Source: Eledone cirrhosa
Lineage: Eukaryota
Direction of reading: 5' to 3'
NCBI GenBank assembly: GCA_964016885.1
Contig: OZ024740.1
Location: 430,714,001 to 430,778,000, forward strand
Length of the DNA: 64,000 nucleotides
Below, piece after piece: positions 1,573 through 63,512 of this stretch (positions are counted from its first letter, which is position 1; each line of letters begins with the position of its first letter). A program made the position numbers and the translations under genes. The notes under the pieces were generated by a model. That model searched no databases. It saw only the letters and a program-made list of their open reading frames with translations, and was not told where the DNA came from.

Positions 1573-1872
1573 ATATATAAACAACTATCTGGTTGTGGAA
1601 CCAACCAACCAACCAGAAATTTATAGGTTTGTAGATTTGTAAATTTATAAATATATAATAAATATATATATATGTTTATATATGTTAATATATATATGTT
1701 TATATATATATATGTTTATATATGTATATATATATATGTTTATATATATATATATATATATGTTTATATATGTATATATATATAAACATATATATATATC
1801 TAAACATATATATATATATAAACATATATATATATATATATATATAAACATATATATATATATATATATAAA

Positions 1873-1992
1873 CATATATTTAGAAACACACAGATACATG
1901 CGGACACACACATATATACATGAATGCATCCGCACCCAACTGTGAGTTAAGGGTGCCAACTTCACCGATGTTGCTCAATGAATGACTGGGAC
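1873..1992 (-). mobile_element. 3' end of family F 593-nt element, cut by the gap
   Basis: Near-identical to 21520-21637. Confidence 0.8.
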
Positions 1993-6634: not shown

Positions 6635-7174
6635 CAATATATAACAGTTTTACAAATAGCTTTGACGTACCCTTTTAAAATACAACCATTACTTTCGGAG
6701 GCTGTCTGGATAGTGAATTGTTTATATTGTTTTAATAAGTCATAGTGTTAAGCACAATTAGAAAAAGACGGAGATAAAGAAAAAGAAAAAAGACGGAGAG
6801 AGAGAGAAGAACAGAGAAATTTTTGATGGTGAGATATGCTAATTTTACTGGGTTCCTGTTGATAAGCACAGAAGATTTGGATATTTCACTTTTTATTTCA
6901 ATTCCATTTCGATTCTCTTTATTTTTCAATTCACGTACCATCGTTGCGAAACATATTTAGGTTTCGAAATTCAAATTCATCTACGGAGCGGGTTTGGATT
7001 TTGAAATTTAGATTTGTCCAGGAATCACGGCCTTTGCCAATATAAGCTTGTCTTTATTGACTTATATCGAGACAGACAAATTGTATTCACTTTAATTAGT
7101 TTATTTCATTAATAGCTAACTTTGTCTGTTGCAATGCAAACACGTTTTCTGTTTATCATATATATATATATATA

Positions 7175-8007
7175 TTTCGTTTCTGAATTTGTTTAGCAAG
7201 ATTCTATATCTGAAATCGTGTGTTGAAACCGATATTGTTATACTGTGGGAGGGTCATGTTGCCAATAAGATACACATGCACCAGTTGCTTTCACACGCAC
7301 CAGTTGCTTTCTACATTGTCCTTCAGTACATCTTATGCTATACACTACATTTCTAGTTTTACAGTTAATATGGGGGCTTATTTTACAGGTTATACATTTC
7401 TTATCTATACATGAGGGTCTTTGGAACGGGTATGTCTTGCTAATAAGGGTAAATTAGAGAACATAGAAATGAAAATAGAATCCACACACAGAAAAGATGC
7501 AATGTTTAGGCAAATTACAGAGGCAGTAAGCATAAAAGAATTACAACCAAAATTAAATAGAAAATATGAGTGGAACAGCAACATCACAACTTACAATTAA
7601 GGACAAAATAAAAACACACACACACATAGAACAAACAACCAACCAACAACATGTAAATAAATAAACAAATAGATGAATGAACACAAACACTCACAGACAC
7701 CCGGATGTGGTGCATGCGCAAACTGAGCACACAACACACACACAGAAACAAAATGGCGTAGGACAGAAGAAAGGAAAGGCACAGAAACAAAGAAAGGAAT
7801 CCCCAGTCACTGAAGAGGTCACAGAGTGTGTGACGAAAGGACTATGACTATATATAAACAACTATCTGGTTGTGGAACCAACCAACCAACCAGAAATTTA
7901 TAAGTTTGTAGATTTGTAAATTTATAAATTTATAAATATATAATAAATTGAAGTGAAAGCAACTGGTGCGTGTGTTTCTTATTGGCAACATGACCCTCCC
8001 AAAGTAT

Positions 8008-8012
<5 letters not shown>
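7175..8012 (+). mobile_element. PLE family A (Nematis-like) 3' fragment with inverted 5' piece at 7175-7290
   Basis: 7441-7590 translates NKGKLENIEMKIESTHRKDAMFRQITEAVSIKELQPKLNRKYEW, homologous to the GIY-YIG C-terminus at 47420-47550. Confidence 0.8.
7805..7849 (+). ncRNA. Type I minimal hammerhead ribozyme, family A
   Basis: Identical to 1528-1572. Confidence 0.8.
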
Positions 8013-19645: not shown

Positions 19646-19848
19646 CAGGAAGACATGATATGAAGGTTAAAAAACACTTGTGGATAGTGCAGTTTTAAAT
19701 CAACATATGAAAAGTAGTTTTAGATTGATGTGTGATATTTTTTTTTTTTTTTCCAATATCACACATCAATCTAAAACTACTTTTCATATGTTGATTTAAA
19801 ACTGCACTATCCACAAGTGTTTTTTAACCTTCATATCATGTCTTCCTG

Positions 19849-19915
19849 TTTTATCTGATGAAAACACAAATATTATTGCATGATGATATTTGTTTTTGAA
19901 ATGCGCATAATAAAA
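19849..19915 (+). ncRNA. Type I hammerhead ribozyme, family E
   Basis: UUUUAU CUGAUGA [AAAcACAAAUAUUAUU gcau GAUGAUAUUUGUuUUU] GAAA UGCGCA UA^AUAAAA. Confidence 0.8.
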
Positions 19916-19950
19916 TACATGGAACTCTTTTAACCATCTTTTGTTCTTAT

Positions 19951-20075
19951 ATATATATATATATATATGCATATATATATATATATGTATATATATGTAT
20001 GTATATATATAGATGTATATATATATATGTATGTATATTTATGTATGTATATATATATATGTATATATATATATG

Positions 20076-20144
<69 letters not shown>

Positions 20145-20173
20145 GTATATATATATATACATATATATGTATA

Positions 20174-20207
<34 letters not shown>

Positions 20208-20227
20208 CATATATATATATACATATA

Positions 20228-20325
<98 letters not shown>

Positions 20326-20350
20326 CATATTTATACATATATATATATAC

Positions 20351-20393
<43 letters not shown>

Positions 20394-20448
20394 TCTATAC
20401 ACATATATATACACACACATATATATATATATATACATATATATATAC

Positions 20449-20501
<53 letters not shown>

Positions 20502-20626
20502 CATATATATACATATATATATACATATATATATACATATATATATATACATATATATACATATATATATACATATATATATATACATATATATACATAT
20601 ATATATATACATATATATATATACAC

Positions 20627-20700
<74 letters not shown>

Positions 20701-20701
20701 G

Positions 20702-20748
<47 letters not shown>

Positions 20749-20879
20749 GTGTATATATATATGTATATATATATATGTATATATATGTATATATATATGT
20801 ATATATATATGTATATATATGTATATATATATATGTATATATATATGTATATATATATGTATATATATATGTATATATA

Positions 20880-20915
<36 letters not shown>

Positions 20916-20942
20916 CATATATATATACACATATATATATAC

Positions 20943-20975
<33 letters not shown>

Positions 20976-21001
20976 CATATATATATGTATATATATATAT
21001 G

Positions 21002-21032
<31 letters not shown>

Positions 21033-21079
21033 GTATATATATGTGTATATATATATGTATATATATATATATGTATATA

Positions 21080-21126
<47 letters not shown>

Positions 21127-21139
21127 GTATATATATATG

Positions 21140-21172
<33 letters not shown>

Positions 21173-21243
21173 GTGTATATATATATGTATATATATGTAT
21201 ATATTTCTATATATATATGTATATATATGTGTATATATATATG

Positions 21244-21276
<33 letters not shown>

Positions 21277-21319
21277 GTATATATATATACGTATATATAT
21301 ATATATGTATATATATGTT

Positions 21320-21402
<83 letters not shown>

Positions 21403-21409
21403 GTATATA

Positions 21410-21478
<69 letters not shown>

Positions 21479-21516
21479 GTGTATATATATATGTATATAT
21501 ATGTATATATATATGT
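19951..21516. repeat. Degenerate (TA)n block
   Basis: Direct reading. Confidence 0.98.
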
Positions 21517-21756
21517 ACAATATATTTAGAAACACACAGATACATGCGGACACACACATATACATGAATGCATCCACACCCAACCGTGAGTTAAGGGTGC
21601 CAACCTCACCGATGTTGCTCAATGAATGACTGGGACAGACCAATCCGGTTGAACTAGACTGAACCAGTATCAGAGTTAAAAATACATTATGAAGAGAGAA
21701 GAAACATTTAGATATAATTAGTAATAAAATGTATCATACCTAAACTGCTCCTAGAT

Positions 21757-21846
21757 TCCTCGACTACGTAGTTTCGTGGCATAAACAAAAACAATACATC
21801 ATAAAGATATAGAGTCCCTGCGAGGTCTGCCGACTTATCAAGAGGA
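21757..21846 (-). ncRNA. Type I hammerhead, U3-A8 variant, long stem II, family F
   Basis: Reverse complement of 22308-22392 with 5 extra nt in stem II. Confidence 0.75.
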
Positions 21847-22307
21847 TACCTCATTTTACTAGTCTCAAGAACGCGTCTACACGACGTGAGAAAGAATCCC
21901 AAAAGGCGGAGGGGGAGATAGTCACGCGATATAACGGTCGAGAAACAGAGCTAAGCCTCTTATAACCCCGAAGAAAATACCACAGAGGCGGAGGGGGTAT
22001 TTATATCGAAGCCGTAGAAGAGGTGGTGAAGGGGGAGAGAAGTATGAGTAATGGCAGCTTTCCAGCAGTCACCACACTTCAAAGATTACTCAACCAGAGG
22101 GAGTTATTAACAATATATTTAGAAACACACAGATACATGCGGACACACACATATACATGAATGCATCCACACCCAACCGTGAGTTAAGGGTGCCAACCTC
22201 ACCGATGTTGCTTAATGAATGACTGGGACAGACCAATCCGGTTGAACTAGACTGAACCAGTATCAGAGTTAAAAATACATTATGAAGAGAGAAGAAACAT
22301 TTAGGTA

Positions 22308-22392
22308 TCCTCTTGATAAGTCGGCAGACCTCGCAGGGACTCTATATCTTTATGATGTTTTTGTTTATGCCACGAAACTACGTAGTCGAGGA
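22308..22392 (+). ncRNA. Type I hammerhead, U3-A8 variant, long stem II, family F
   Basis: UCCUC UUGAUAA GUcGGCA...UGCCAC GAAA CUACGUAG UC^GAGGA. Confidence 0.75.
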
Positions 22393-22494
22393 ATCTAGGA
22401 GCAGTTTAGGTATGATACATTTTATTACTAATTATATCTAAATGTTTCTTCTCTCTTCATAATGTATATATATATGTATATATATGTGTATATA

Positions 22495-22607
<113 letters not shown>

Positions 22608-22621
22608 GTATATATATATGT

Positions 22622-22746
<125 letters not shown>

Positions 22747-22949
22747 CATATATATGTATATATATATATATATATACATATATACCTATATATATACATA
22801 TTTTCCTCCTGTATTTTCCAAAACAAATCTCTTGTATTTTGTCCTGATTGTAAAATAAGGAAGTTTTTTTGGCGTATTTTACTAAACAAATCTAATATTT
22901 TTGTTTACGTTCGTTAAATACTAGGATCTAACTTAAACCTATTCTTCTC

Positions 22950-26820: not shown

Positions 26821-29800
26821 ACCTCTACACGGCCGAAGCCCTCAGGCAGCTCCGTAACCCACTCTTCTACCGCCCTCTACCCTCCGATCCCACACCCCTC
26901 TACCAACAACAAGTTTCCTCCACCATCCAACACCTTGTCTCCTCCTCCCTCCTCCCCCCACCGCTTGCCACCTCATCGTCCGCACCCCCCGCACCCCCAC
27001 CATCTACTTCCTGCCCAAACTCCACAAACCCGACAACCCCGGCCGCCCCATCGTCTCTGCTTGCAACTGCCCCACCGAACTCATCTCCGCCTTTCTCAAC
27101 TCCATCCTCGCCCCCCTTGTCACCACCCTCCCCTCCCACATCTCCGACACCAACCATGCCCTGCGCCTTTTCGACTCCTTCACCTACCCACCCGGCCCAC
27201 AGCCCTTCCTCTTCACCCTAGACATCAAGTCCCACTATACCGTCATCCCCCACGCCGACGGCCTACGCGCCCTCAAACACTACCTCGACCTCGCCCCTCC
27301 ACCATCCCCTCCACCCGCACCCTCCTTCGCTTCGCCGAGCTGGTCCTCACCCTCAACTGTTTCTCCTTCTCGGGTGAGTTTTACCAACAGGTCACTGGGT
27401 AGCCATGGGTACAAGAATGGGCCCAAACTATGCCAACCTTTTTGTTGGCCATGTTGAGGCCCAAATCTTTGCCCAGTACGCCGGCCCCACGCCCGAACTG
27501 TACGGTCGTTACATCGACGACTGTATCGGAGCCACGACCCTCACCCGAGAACAGCTCGACTCCTTTCTCTCCTTCTTCTGCTCCTTCCACCCCTCCCTCC
27601 ACTTCACCACCTCTATCTCTACCACCCACGTCCACTTCTTAGACATCTCCGTCGCCTTCGACCCCTGCCACCTCTCCCTCATCACCTCCGCCTTCTTCAA
27701 ACCCACCGACTCCCACTACTACCTCGACTTCACCTCTTCCCACTCCACACACACTAAACAGTCTATTCCCTACTCCCAACTCCTCAGGATCCGCCGCCTC
27801 TGTAGCCGAGATGCCGACTTTGAGTCCCAGGCCCTTTCCCTAGTCAGCCATTTCATCCGCAGAGGTTACCCCCCTCTCTCGTCCACACCGCTCTCACCCG
27901 CGCCCGTGCTGTCCACCGCTCCACCACCCTCACCCCACGCGACCGCACACCCACCCACCGTCTCCTCTTCCTCATCACCTACCACCCCTCCAACATACCC
28001 CTCCACCGCACCATCCTCCAGTCCGACCCCTCCACCTCCCACATCTTCCCAGCCCCACCACTCCCCTCCTTCAAACGCGCACGCAATCTCCGCACCCTCC
28101 TCGTCCACAGCTCCCTACCCCCAACCCACGGTCTCTTCCCCCCCGGTTCCTTTCCCTGTTATAGGCCCCGCTGCAACACCTGTCCCCACATTACCAACAC
28201 CACCACCTTCCAGGGCCCCAACGGCCACTCTCTCTGTCCGGCACGCCTTCCGCTGCACCTCCTCCAACCTAGTCTACGGACTTCGCTGCACGGATTGCAG
28301 CACGACTTACGTCGGACAGACTGGACGTCGCCTGGCGGACAGATTTACTGAGCACCTCCGGGATAGTCGTCTCGGTGGTAGTTCCTCCATCGCCCGCCAC
28401 TTTGGTGCCCCTGGACATTCCGCACACCATCTCACAGTCTGTGGCCTACTCCAATGCCACGGAACACCCGCCAATCTCCTCAGAGTTGAACAAAGAACCA
28501 TCTTCACCCTACAGACCCACACTCCCCCAGCCTGAACTCCCCACCCTTATTCCTTTAGCCTTCGACCGCCCCCTCCCCCCACACATATCCCCCACTAACA
28601 CCACTAACACACCCCTCCTTTTCACCGCCCACCCCACAACTAACAATACTAACACCTCCACCCCACCACCCCGAAACTAACATCACTAACACCCCCTGAC
28701 CCCAAGCACACGTACACACACACCCACTTACACCACCCACTCCACACGCAACTAACATCACTCACACCCCCAACCCTACGCACACGAACACACACACCCT
28801 CTTACACCACCCACTCTACACACCCTACCACCACTGACCCCCACTCACACCCGCATTCAACCCTTTCTCCACCTCCAGTATACTAACACCCACTAACACC
28901 CCCTTCACCACACACACACACCAGTACACTACACTCCCTCCATCGGCCCCCACACCCTTCTCTCCCCGCTCCACCCACACCCTTTCTCAAACACTCACAC
29001 ATCCTACTAACACCTCTACTAATACACACACACCCCTCCTCACTCCAACTTTCACACCTACCCATCCTCTCCCCTGTCCACCACACCTCTGCACACACTG
29101 ACACACCTTCACTTACCATTCTACCCTACTGCTGCTATGCCTCTGACCACCTCCCCGCACACACAGACACACAACCCTCCTCCTGCCTTGACCCTCTGAC
29201 CACTTCCTGTTGCGCGCGCACCTCACATCTCCCCTCTTCCGACCAATCTCTTCACGGATTACACCTATTTGAACCTTGATCCCGAGAATCTACCGCATCC
29301 CAGGATTTTACTCAGCATTCCACCACATCTTTTTACGGAATTACCTTTAAGGCTCACGCCAGACACACACACAAAAAAAAATGTTTCCCACACGCCACCT
29401 ACATCCACAACACGCATAAACACCACACACACACGTGCGTACCACCACATATTTACACATTCAGCCTCCGGAATCCTCTCCCCCACCCCTCTATCCACAC
29501 ACGCACACACACTCCGACCTACACCCCACCCCACACACACCTCTTCCTGAACATGCAACCCCGTTCTTCCCCCAACCCTTGCTTTCACATACACACACAC
29601 ACACACGTACACCTACACACACACACCACCTTCAGTCCTCCCCGCTCGGACACCCCGTCTCCCTCTCCCCACTCCACCCGCCACCACCCCTACATGCCCC
29701 ACACCCTTCCACCACCTGTTTTATCCCATTTTAATTTTATTTTGATCATGCCTTTATTTTTAATTTCGTTTGCACCGTTTCCTCTCACCCCCTTTTTGCT

Positions 29801-46602: not shown

Positions 46603-48291
<1,689 letters not shown>

Positions 48292-61185: not shown

Positions 61186-63279
61186 TAATTCCTGTCGCTT
61201 ATTTAATAGGATATCCTTAGATTTCATTATTTCAAATAGTTCTTGGGAACACAATCTACATTCATTTCTATTATTTTGATAAGGGGTGGCTCTTTTGAGC
61301 ACACTCCAGGTCATATCATATTCTATATTCTTATTTCTATAACTATTAATTTTTTCTGCTAGAGATGTTGTATTAGCCAGTGCGGCATTTTTAAAACTAT
61401 TTTTGTGGGTATTAAACCTTACCTTAAAATTGTTAGAAGTAGCTCCTATATATGAGCAAATAGAATCTTTAGTTTTAACTTTACATTTATAAACTATGTT
61501 GTTAACAAGACAATTTCCTTTTAATGGGCAGTTTGCTTTGTTTCTACAGTTACAACCTTTCGTTAATTCTGTATTTGAGGAGATATTATGGTTAGTTTGA
61601 TGTATTGGTGGTATACTTATGGTTTTTTTACATTTATATGCATTATAGGCACTTATATTTTGTTTTATGTTTTTGGTTGTTGAGTATGAGAATTTAACTG
61701 TTGATCTATTTAAGATTTGATGGTATTTGTGGTTTGGCGGGAATTTTTTCTCTAGGATATTAAAAATTTTTTTAGCAATATTATCCTTAATTTGTAAATT
61801 AAATGGAGCATTATACCAAGTAACTCGTCTATTACGGTTTCTATGTTGTTTATTGTTTTTATAGGATGCATCGTGATGTTTACTAGGAGGATTAATGTTA
61901 ATGACCTCACCACGCACATTTTTAGTTAGATTTATTGATTTAGGTGTTTTAGCTTGTTTATTAGGAGTTTTATTATTAACATTTATTAGAGTTGTATGAT
62001 GAGTAGTTTTTTGAGAGTTACTATACTTTATATTAGAGGAGTTAGAGAAATTTGGTTTTATGTTGGTATTTTGGGGTATAGTGTGAGTGGCATTTAGGTG
62101 TGTACTTTTCATTTGGTGTTTGTTGGTAATATTAGGTTGTATGTTTATAGTGTTATTAGTAGAAGGTATATATTCCAATCTATTTTTGTGGCCACTTCTA
62201 TCTAGAGCTTCGTTATAGAAGGTCGCATTTTTATCAAATACATCTTGGTTAGACGAAAGGTTAGAAATTCTAAGTGATATATTATATGCAAGGTTTTTAA
62301 GGATAGATTTAGGGTGATTAGATTGTGAGTGTATGTAGTGTAAGTTTTGGTTGGGTTTATGGTAAGGTTGGTAGATACCCGTAGCTAAGTCTAAAGTTAT
62401 ATCTAGGAAATTAACTACTTTACTTGTGTTTTCAAAAGTAATATGAAGACTATAATAGTCTTTAAGGAAAGTTCTAATAAGCTTTTTGTTTTTTTCTATT
62501 TCTGAGAGGCTAAGGTTGTTGGAAAGAAGAAGACAGTCATCACGATATAAACCACCTTTAAGGTGGGGAAAGGAAGCATTTATGTTAAAAAGAAGAAAGA
62601 GGCCCACAAGATCAGTAATTTGGGCAGAATCGCTTGAACCCATAGTAATATCAAATAGATTACTATATGTGTTTCTGGTCCAGTATTCATTCTGAAATTC
62701 AATAAGTGTTAGTCTAGCATGTGTAATAATATTAATGTCATCCAAAGTTAAGTTAGATCTATTTTTAGCAAATATCAAAGCTTTGTTCAGGAGTATAGGT
62801 GATATAGAAGAATAGTAATTATCTATATCAAATTGTAGAAATGAAGCAGAAGATTTACATCTAATATTTTTAAACCAGTTAATTACCTGGGAAGTGTTTT
62901 CCCAGAGTGGTAAATTAACATGTTTTCTTATTTGTGGGATGACTCTATCCAAAATTTTTTTGCTAATTATTCCAATATCAGATTTGGAGGGACATATAAG
63001 TCTTATAGAAGGATTTGAGTTAAAGTTTGATTTATGATCTTTCAGGTTGAAGTGTGGTCTTTTCAATGCCAAAGGTTCAGTTCTATCTTCAATATTTAGT
63101 TTATTCACTATGTTGTGTGTTTTGTTGTTGATGTTGGTGAGTGACGCATTATTAGTTTTTCTATAATTTTTCCTGAGTTCTTTATATATGAACTCATTAT
63201 AATTTTCAATATCCATGTGATATAAGTTTCCAGTTTTGTCCGAGTGGACATGGATTTTTTTAGACTTTTTTAGGTCCAT
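61129..63279 (-). CDS. Penelope-like element RT + C-terminal GIY-YIG (Hydra-clade-like), 5'-truncated, open frame 716 aa
   Basis: [89 protein letters not shown]. Confidence 0.9.
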
Positions 63280-63338
63280 AGATTTATCTACATATATGTA
63301 TATATATATATGTATATATATATATGTATATATATATA

Positions 63339-63463
<125 letters not shown>

Positions 63464-63512
63464 GTATATATATATATACATATATATCTTGCTAAACAAA
63501 TTCAGAAACGAA

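What the first reader, a model, noticed from the sequence alone, without database searches (positions are those of the whole stretch)
21517..22467. Family F: 593-nt unit with a U3-A8 variant hammerhead and branched stem II
Seen: core UUGAUAA instead of CUGANGA, perfect UCCUC/GAGGA stem I, 10-nt palindrome ACUACGUAGU as stem III, GUC site. Stem II holds possible sub-hairpins (CCU/AGG; UAUAUC/GAUGUA in the minus copy). The insert is 1.3 units plus an inverted copy of the ribozyme, and another copy abuts the gap at 1873-1992. Established: positions 3 and 8 pair, and U3-A8 is a tolerated covariation. Inference: a second retrozyme-like family that canonical searches would miss.
Basis: partly seen in the sequence, partly recalled or inferred. 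Interest (0 to 1): 0.85.

Follow-up and report, generated by a model that had tools for sequence, protein, structure and literature searches.

The report
Two-site Penelope-type retrozyme, U3-A8 hammerhead
This is one copy of an abundant non-coding 590-base mobile repeat that carries a predicted self-cutting RNA with an already described core variant; its insertions nearly always start from two fixed sites 162 bases apart, which suggests that a Penelope-type enzyme likely copied one RNA, probably a circle, from both ends of a DNA break.

Summary
Observation confirmed, apart from the branched stem II. The insert is 1.33 units of a 593-nt repeat plus an inverted arm, in (TA)n. Its type I hammerhead has U3-A8, a 5-bp stem I and a 10-nt palindromic stem III. 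A core 17-mer occurs 6,189 times in the genome; U3-A8 is fixed, with no C3-G8 copy. The ribozyme is unchanged (0 of 44 positions) between subfamilies differing at 85 of 575. Stem II is better read as one long interrupted hairpin. U3-A8 is published for Schistosoma Penelope-like elements. Insertion anatomy: 3' ends fall at two sites 162 nt apart, two-armed inserts pair one of each (89 of 91), inserts run up to about 7.7 units, and changes shared by all copies within an insert are enriched for sense A>G (31 of 94 against 50 of 627). Best reading: a non-autonomous Penelope-mobilised retrozyme, likely copied from an RNA circle, possibly A-to-I edited. Cleavage, circles, editing and the partner enzyme are untested. 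Earlier notes of this scan describe what appears to be the same family, and the two-arm pattern in other families, elsewhere in this genome.

The parts
21517..22304 (-). Arm B: 1.33 tandem units (full unit 21517-22109, partial unit 22110-22304); RNA-sense 3' end at site B, joined to (TA)n
22303..22467 (+). Arm A: inverted 5'-truncated copy (unit positions 259-428), 3' end at site A joined to (TA)n; 2-nt overlap with arm B at 22303-22304
21757..21846 (-). Intact type I hammerhead motif: stem I 21846-21842 with 21761-21757; core U3-A9 21841-21835; stem II 21834-21776; GAAA 21775-21772; palindrome 21772-21763; C17 21762
   Evidence: cleavage not tested
22308..22392 (+). Second hammerhead motif in arm A, with a 5-nt deletion in the distal stem II hairpin; predicted cut after 22387
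21682..21693 (-). Site A end motif (unit 417-428) inside the full unit; 104 of 231 mapped 3' ends fall here; identical in old and young subfamilies (0 of 25 positions differ)
21520..21531 (-). Site B end motif (unit 579-590); 115 of 231 mapped 3' ends; resembles site A (TTC-WW-AAT-R-TAT); 1 of 30 positions differs between subfamilies
21936..21953 (-). Unit 157-174, predicted to pair with the cleavage-site region and hold the ribozyme off (ribozyme fold 6-9 kcal/mol above the free ensemble); covariation support is weak
   Evidence: prediction only
1867..1992 (-). Separate insertion of the same family, site-B end only, cut by an assembly gap
19948..21516 (.). (TA)n-rich target, left flank
22468..22801 (.). 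(TA)n-rich target, right flank

Best explanation
This is a high-copy, non-coding, tandemly repeated element with a conserved type I U3-A8 hammerhead motif and two fixed 3' ends, likely mobilised in trans by a Penelope-like (PLE) reverse transcriptase-endonuclease that probably copies a circular RNA monomer from both ends of a cut in (TA)n. Steps: (1) tandem copies are transcribed on the ribozyme strand (inferred: fixed ends are 3' and ragged ends 5' on that strand). (2) The hammerhead cuts, probably as a dimer through the 10-nt palindrome, and the monomer is ligated to a circle in which an alternative fold keeps the ribozyme off (inferred, about 0.65). (3) A PLE protein cuts both strands of (TA)n; one DNA end primes at site A, the other at site B, 162 nt downstream (the end pattern is shown, the enzyme inferred, about 0.9). 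(4) Each polymerase can run for more than one unit; the two cDNA ends join head to head through 1-7 nt of microhomology (pattern shown). (5) Some templates carry A-to-I edits that become fixed as A>G in every unit of the insert (inferred, about 0.55).
For: Copy number and fixation of U3-A8. Ribozyme unchanged at 0 of 44 positions between majority states of 27 old and 108 young loci that differ at 85 of 575 (P about 5e-4). 219 of 231 3' ends at A or B, 198 of 231 followed by (TA)n. Two-armed inserts with both ends at A or B: 71 A+B, 2 B+B, 1 A+A; one B+B is two abutting A+B inserts, giving 73 of 75; 16 of 16 in 27 further loci. In 23 of 71 neither arm is contained in the other, so both are primed separately. 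Junction microhomology of 2 nt or more in 12 of 25 against 15% by chance. Opposite arms differ by 0.7%, loci by 3.9%; 46 shared changes lie on both arms. 5' ends avoid no site and are not enriched at the cleavage site (2 of 205, 3.8 expected). Shared changes: A>G 31 of 94 against 50 of 627 single-copy changes (p 5e-10; A>G over T>C p 4e-5); replicated 4 of 5 against 3 of 40; L192 carries one A>G in all 7 ribozymes on both arms. Literature: inverted 5'-truncated copy and one-ended tail are PLE hallmarks (PMC8557442); a PLE protein cuts and extends both strands and starts at two internal RNA sites (PMC11167929).
Against: No cleavage, transcript or circle was observed. No autonomous partner was found: no similarity above chance between the unit and the PLE loci tested, and no second family sharing the palindromic stem III (2 matches, 1 in the control). 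In its natural context the ribozyme fold is predicted 6-9 kcal/mol above the free ensemble. In the one PLE tested in vitro, ribozyme cleavage was not needed for insertion and no start-site difference between strands was seen (PMC11167929); 8 of 9 Xenopus retrozyme dimers did not cleave in vitro (10.64898/2026.07.22.740005). Editing signal: among strictly private alleles A>G is 6 of 30 against 16 of 288 (p 0.011) but equals T>C (6), so no strand bias there; old versus young majority differences are A>G 19 and T>C 17; A>G sites are no more paired than other A (0.63 against 0.64). For 31 of 155 segments another locus was nearer than the own locus and 31 tied. One B+B and one A+A insert remain.
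Confidence: 0.8

Rival explanations
1. Same element and PLE enzyme, but the template is an uncut linear multimer transcribed from an existing tandem array (or two RNAs from one source locus); the ribozyme is a passenger or acts at another step.
For: PLE insertion in vitro used uncut RNA and tolerated dead ribozymes. Source arrays of 4-8 units exist. L202 carries A9>G in both arms, so an RNA with a damaged core was inserted. Homogeneous arrays would also give homogeneous daughters.
Against: The ribozyme is conserved across subfamilies. A>G excess is in changes shared by all units and not in single-unit changes (strand test p 0.14), which fits one monomer copied repeatedly better than a multimer edited unit by unit.
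Confidence: 0.3
2. The inverted arm arises by self-priming or fold-back of a single cDNA (or on an antisense template), as proposed for rotifer PLEs, not by two target-primed starts.
For: Proposed in PMC3846280 (passages). 7 of 71 junctions are near-palindromic (3.7 expected, p 0.08).
Against: In 23 of 71 inserts neither arm is contained in the other; offsets are otherwise spread over the whole unit; both outer ends are fixed and joined to (TA)n.
Confidence: 0.08
3. The A>G excess comes from DNA-level strand bias at transcribed source loci, selection for G-U tolerant stems, or recombination between subfamilies, not from A-to-I editing.
For: Weak strand bias among strictly private alleles; many A>G alleles recur as subfamily alleles; T>C is as frequent as A>G between subfamilies.
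Against: C>T, the commonest single-copy change and equally G-U tolerant, is not enriched among shared changes (16 of 94 against 109 of 627); 5' neighbour is U in 18 of 31 and G in 3 of 31, in line with the ADAR preference as recalled, though single-copy A>G also has U in 22 of 50.
Confidence: 0.4
4. A satellite amplified at DNA level with a chance hammerhead look-alike.
For: The ribozyme region alone has unremarkable folding energy; Rfam finds no hammerhead.
Against: Thousands of dispersed inserts with fixed 3' and ragged 5' ends; all core and stem positions conserved.
Confidence: 0.02

Closest known systems
Metazoan non-LTR retrozymes (Cervera and de la Pena 2020, PMC7229834, passages read; Li, Clavereau and Pollet 2026, 10.64898/2026.07.22.740005, parts 1-3 of 5 read)
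   Same: Non-coding tandem units with one type I hammerhead each, dispersed monomers to multimers, proposed PLE mobilisation; unit length within the reported 51-972 bp range.
   Different: U3-A8 core, 59-nt stem II and a 10-nt palindromic stem III; circular RNA not shown here; the passages read do not describe two fixed ends or two-armed inserts.
U3-A8 minimal hammerheads of Schistosoma mansoni Cercyon PLEs (Cervera and de la Pena 2014, PMC4209133, parts 1-2 of 4 read)
   Same: Same core covariation, 5-bp helix I, palindromic helix III region, G10.1-C11.1.
   Different: Those are minimal, heterogeneous, mostly single motifs; here the motif is uniform, sits in a tandem unit, has a longer helix III and no unpaired base between A9 and G10.1.
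Endonuclease-bearing Penelope-like elements and their tail (Craig et al. 2021, PMC8557442, passages; Frangieh et al. 2024, PMC11167929, parts 1-2 of 4; Arkhipova et al. 2013, PMC3846280, passages)
   Same: 5' truncation, partial tandems, inverted 5' copy, tail at one end only, (TA)n targets, two internal start sites of reverse transcription.
   Different: No ORF; the two sites are 162 nt apart instead of 30-40; they are used one per DNA end in 89 of 91 inserts, whereas the in vitro study saw no strand difference.
L1 twin priming (recalled, not read here)
   Same: Second target strand primes internally; head-to-head junction with microhomology.
   Different: Here the second site is fixed, arms overlap in sequence in 62 of 71 cases and can each exceed one unit.

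Membership tests
Type I hammerhead ribozyme | Core boxes (N3 U G A N N8 A; GAAA; UH) with a 3-8 Watson-Crick pair | tested here: met
   UUGAUAA, GAAA, UC; U3-A8 in the family, 12 and 13 single-site variants genome-wide
Type I hammerhead ribozyme | Three helices, open helix I, G10.1-C11.1 | tested here: met
   stem I 706 of 723, stem II base 844 of 871, stem III 725 of 737 cells paired; no two-sided compensatory change of note
Type I hammerhead ribozyme | Loop 1 - loop 2 tertiary contact | not tested
   no comparative signal sought; stem II is unusually long
Type I hammerhead ribozyme | Site-specific self-cleavage | not testable with these tools
   needs a bench assay
Type I hammerhead ribozyme | Match to an Rfam hammerhead model | tested here: not met
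   0 of 7 hits at E up to 10
Non-LTR retrozyme | Non-coding tandem units, each with a type I hammerhead | tested here: met
   arrays up to about 7.7 units; the unit was not screened for ORFs under 120 aa
Non-LTR retrozyme | Dispersed high-copy insertions | tested here: met
   6,189 and 7,754 motif matches
Non-LTR retrozyme | Expressed as linear and circular monomer RNA | not testable with these tools
   indirect genomic signs only
Penelope-like element (autonomous) | RT plus GIY-YIG ORF between pLTRs | tested here: not met
   inserts end in (TA)n on both sides in the loci mapped; 31 of 146 loci hold a PLE-like fragment somewhere, 4 within 80 nt, with no common arrangement seen (these 4 not inspected base by base)
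Penelope-mobilised non-autonomous element | Fixed 3' ends, ragged 5' ends, inverted 5' copy, tail at one end, microsatellite target | tested here: met
Penelope-mobilised non-autonomous element | Sequence shared with the pLTR of an autonomous partner | tested here: inconclusive
   no hit above chance against 32 PLE loci and two window regions; most PLE families of the genome were not sampled

The most novel reading that the evidence does not exclude
A single ribozyme-made RNA circle carries two designated priming sites 162 nt apart, one for each end of a PLE-cut DNA break; two polymerases roll round the same circle, and A-to-I edits on that circle are written into the genome and drive the family's sequence evolution. 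The genome would then record both the unsolved two-strand step of PLE retrotransposition and heritable RNA editing.
Probability: 0.4. Interest if true: 0.75.

Novelty: new variant of a known kind. Interest (0 to 1): 0.5.

Why it matters
The element class and the U3-A8 core are known, so the ribozyme alone is a good new example, not a new kind. The value lies in the insertion record. Craig et al. name the formation of tandem and inverted PLE structures as an open problem, and the only in vitro system found two start sites without a strand rule. This family offers a short template with two widely spaced, conserved start motifs and a one-site-per-end rule, so circle versus linear template, two-end priming and fixation of RNA edits can each be tested directly. 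I did not find these points described for retrozymes in the papers read or in searches; subscription papers and supplements were not seen, and Lunse et al. 2017 was not held.

Tried and rejected
Branched stem II: rejected on energy and across loci. A C3-G8 subfamily: none. Other families sharing this ribozyme: two pattern searches at chance level; the diverged contigs in public runs match the old subfamily already found here. Autonomous partner: not found among window PLEs and their close copies; Pfam did not name the PLE-like ORFs, so their clade labels rest on recalled motifs. Expression: no RNA holder listed; this says nothing about expression. Laid contigs show the family in four runs but cannot show ends or circles. 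Enrichment of 5' ends at the cleavage site: absent. Arm lengths are not positively correlated (rho -0.23, p 0.053). Pairing probability does not mark A>G sites. Whole-unit covariation between subfamilies is mixed: 28 pairs kept, 19 broken under one predicted fold. A tree-based count of A>G changes was not obtained, and the strand-mirror count at the palindrome was done for one site only (A341: 26 G, 6 T, 4 C), so polarity of subfamily changes stays open. One search used a mis-registered structure and is disregarded; one search replaces it. Loci dropped before counts: 7 overlapping duplicates, 1 repeat of L069, 3 chance matches and 12 PLE loci; inserts touching a locus edge were left out; L043 holds a duplicated insert counted twice. 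Selected sites (unit 269, 273, 274, 341) were excluded from the spectra. Loci L031-L084 were chosen by the core 17-mer, so their 5' core conservation is not used as evidence.

Full report
Numbering. Unit positions (q) run on the ribozyme strand, which is the minus strand of the window: q1 = 22109, q593 = 21517; the predicted cut follows q348.

Observation. The insert lies between two (TA)n tracts. It has a 593-nt period, an inverted arm at 22303-22467, and a relative at about 1867-1992 next to the gap. A descriptor scan of both strands found 8 type I candidates in the window, two of them this motif. The plus-strand motif has lost 5 nt from the distal stem II hairpin; the minus-strand motif is intact. 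Rfam gives no hammerhead here (none among the 150 of 398 rows listed for the whole window).

Family. The genome (3.0 Gb, an animal by its repeat content; earlier scan notes call it a cephalopod, which I did not test) holds 6,189 exact matches to a core 17-mer with 0 for the control and 7,754 to the site A motif. Changing one core position gives 12 (U3), 13 (A8) and 9 (U7) matches and no C3-G8 copy, so U3-A8 is the fixed state and there is no covariation inside the family. An old subfamily at 81-84% identity was fetched by overall similarity. Majority states of 27 old and 108 young loci differ at 85 of 575 positions but at 0 of 44 ribozyme positions, 0 of 25 at site A and 1 of 30 at site B. This is the best evidence that the ribozyme and both end motifs are under selection.

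Ribozyme fold. Stem I, the stem II base and stem III pair in 97-98% of cells. Stem III gives a weak 3-bp hairpin as a monomer (+1.5 kcal/mol) but a 10-bp duplex between two ribozymes (-12.9), which suggests dimer cleavage (dimer model in PMC4209133). In the full unit the active fold lies 6-9 kcal/mol above the free ensemble because q157-174 can pair with the cleavage site; this is a prediction with weak comparative support. U3-A8 is published for S. mansoni Cercyon PLEs; it was the only paper holding that term.

Insertion anatomy. In 147 inserts from 146 loci, 231 ends are 3' on the ribozyme strand: 115 at q580-593 (site B), 104 at q420-434 (site A), 12 elsewhere; 198 are followed by (TA)n. 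The two sites share the motif TTC-WW-AAT-R-TAT and each follows a predicted hairpin. Two-armed inserts with both ends at A or B were 71 A+B, 2 B+B and 1 A+A; one B+B is two abutting A+B inserts; 27 further loci gave 16 A+B of 16. The rule holds in the old subfamily. 5' ends are spread over the unit and not enriched at the cleavage site (2 of 205). Junctions show microhomology (12 of 25 with 2 nt or more, 15% expected; 4 further junctions have small gaps). In 23 of 71 inserts neither arm is contained in the other, which a fold-back of one cDNA cannot give. This is the PLE signature of inverted 5' copy and one-ended tail, and matches the two internal start sites and two-strand extension of the anole PLE protein, but with a 162-nt instead of 30-40-nt spacing. 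The window's own insert is a B arm of 788 nt and an A arm of 165 nt with a 2-nt overlap.

Template. Units within an insert differ by 0.65%, opposite arms by 0.74%, different loci by 3.9%. Inserts reach about 7.7 units, and in 28 of 71 an arm crosses the cleavage site at least twice. Changes shared by every copy in an insert, relative to the six nearest loci, are A>G on the ribozyme strand in 31 of 94 cases against 50 of 627 for single-copy changes, replicated as 4 of 5 against 3 of 40. L068 has four such A>G in 7-8 copies and L192 one in all 7 ribozymes on both arms. One monomer copied repeatedly by both polymerases, with A-to-I edits, explains this most simply. Against it: the strand bias vanishes among strictly private alleles (6 A>G, 6 T>C), subfamily differences are not strand-biased, and no RNA data were available. 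Cervera and de la Pena mention RNA editing only as a possibility for mussel retrozyme heterogeneity.

Partner. No ORF is part of the element. The genome is rich in PLE-like coding sequence (14,889 first-look candidates for one RT fragment), including a young family with open frames of at least 698 codons, (TA)n targets and two ends about 57 nt apart. None of those tested shares sequence with this unit, so the mobilising element is unidentified.

Verdict. A real non-LTR retrozyme-type family mobilised in the PLE manner (0.8), with a known core variant. What goes beyond the papers read is the long two-site tail with a one-site-per-end rule and the A>G scars. I reached this reading before consulting earlier scan notes; those notes report what appears to be the same 591-595-nt family and the two-arm pattern in 310-, 422- and 467-nt families of this genome. 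They are not independent evidence. Papers seen: PMC4209133 and PMC11167929 parts 1-2 of 4; 10.64898/2026.07.22.740005 parts 1-3 of 5; passages of PMC8557442, PMC7229834, PMC3846280 and PMC6765202; no supplements, which may hold further hammerhead variants or end maps. ADAR neighbour preference, L1 twin priming and PLE clade motifs are recalled.

Noticed in passing
window 63847-63782 (-), 6634-6570 (-), 19647-19577 (-) with 19847-19917 (+), 39838-39784 (-): Other type I hammerhead motifs with canonical C3-G8 cores and 8-nt palindromic stem III; the first lies upstream of a PLE-like ORF at 61129-63501, and the 19.6-19.9 kb pair is an inverted two-arm insert.
   Followed up: partly
window 46700-48190: Truncated young PLE (GIY-YIG C-terminus) in (TA)n with two ends about 57 nt apart; copies at 98-99% with open frames of at least 698 codons. 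Its 3' region has a CUGACGA-hairpin-GAAA core without an obvious stem I.
   Followed up: partly
window about 1200-1660 and 7170-8010: Long perfect or near-perfect palindromic inserts related to the 3' end of that PLE family.
   Followed up: no
window 26858-28535: Frameshifted PLE-like RT and GIY-YIG coding region; many genomic relatives show a TAG or TGA stop at a recurring place in this stretch.
   Followed up: no
unit q113-124 and q195-206 (window about 21997-21986 and 21915-21904), q105-111: A 12-nt GC-box-like direct repeat conserved between subfamilies, next to a TATA-like word that is polymorphic; possible internal promoter.
   Followed up: no
L202; L104, L106, L107: Core changes (A9>G, A8>U, A8>G, U7>C) shared by both units or both arms of an insert, so templates with altered cores were inserted.
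   Followed up: partly
window 60288-61182: Degenerate AT-rich tandem repeats (109 and 294 nt periods) directly downstream of the PLE-like ORF, apparently copies of its 3' end.
   Followed up: no
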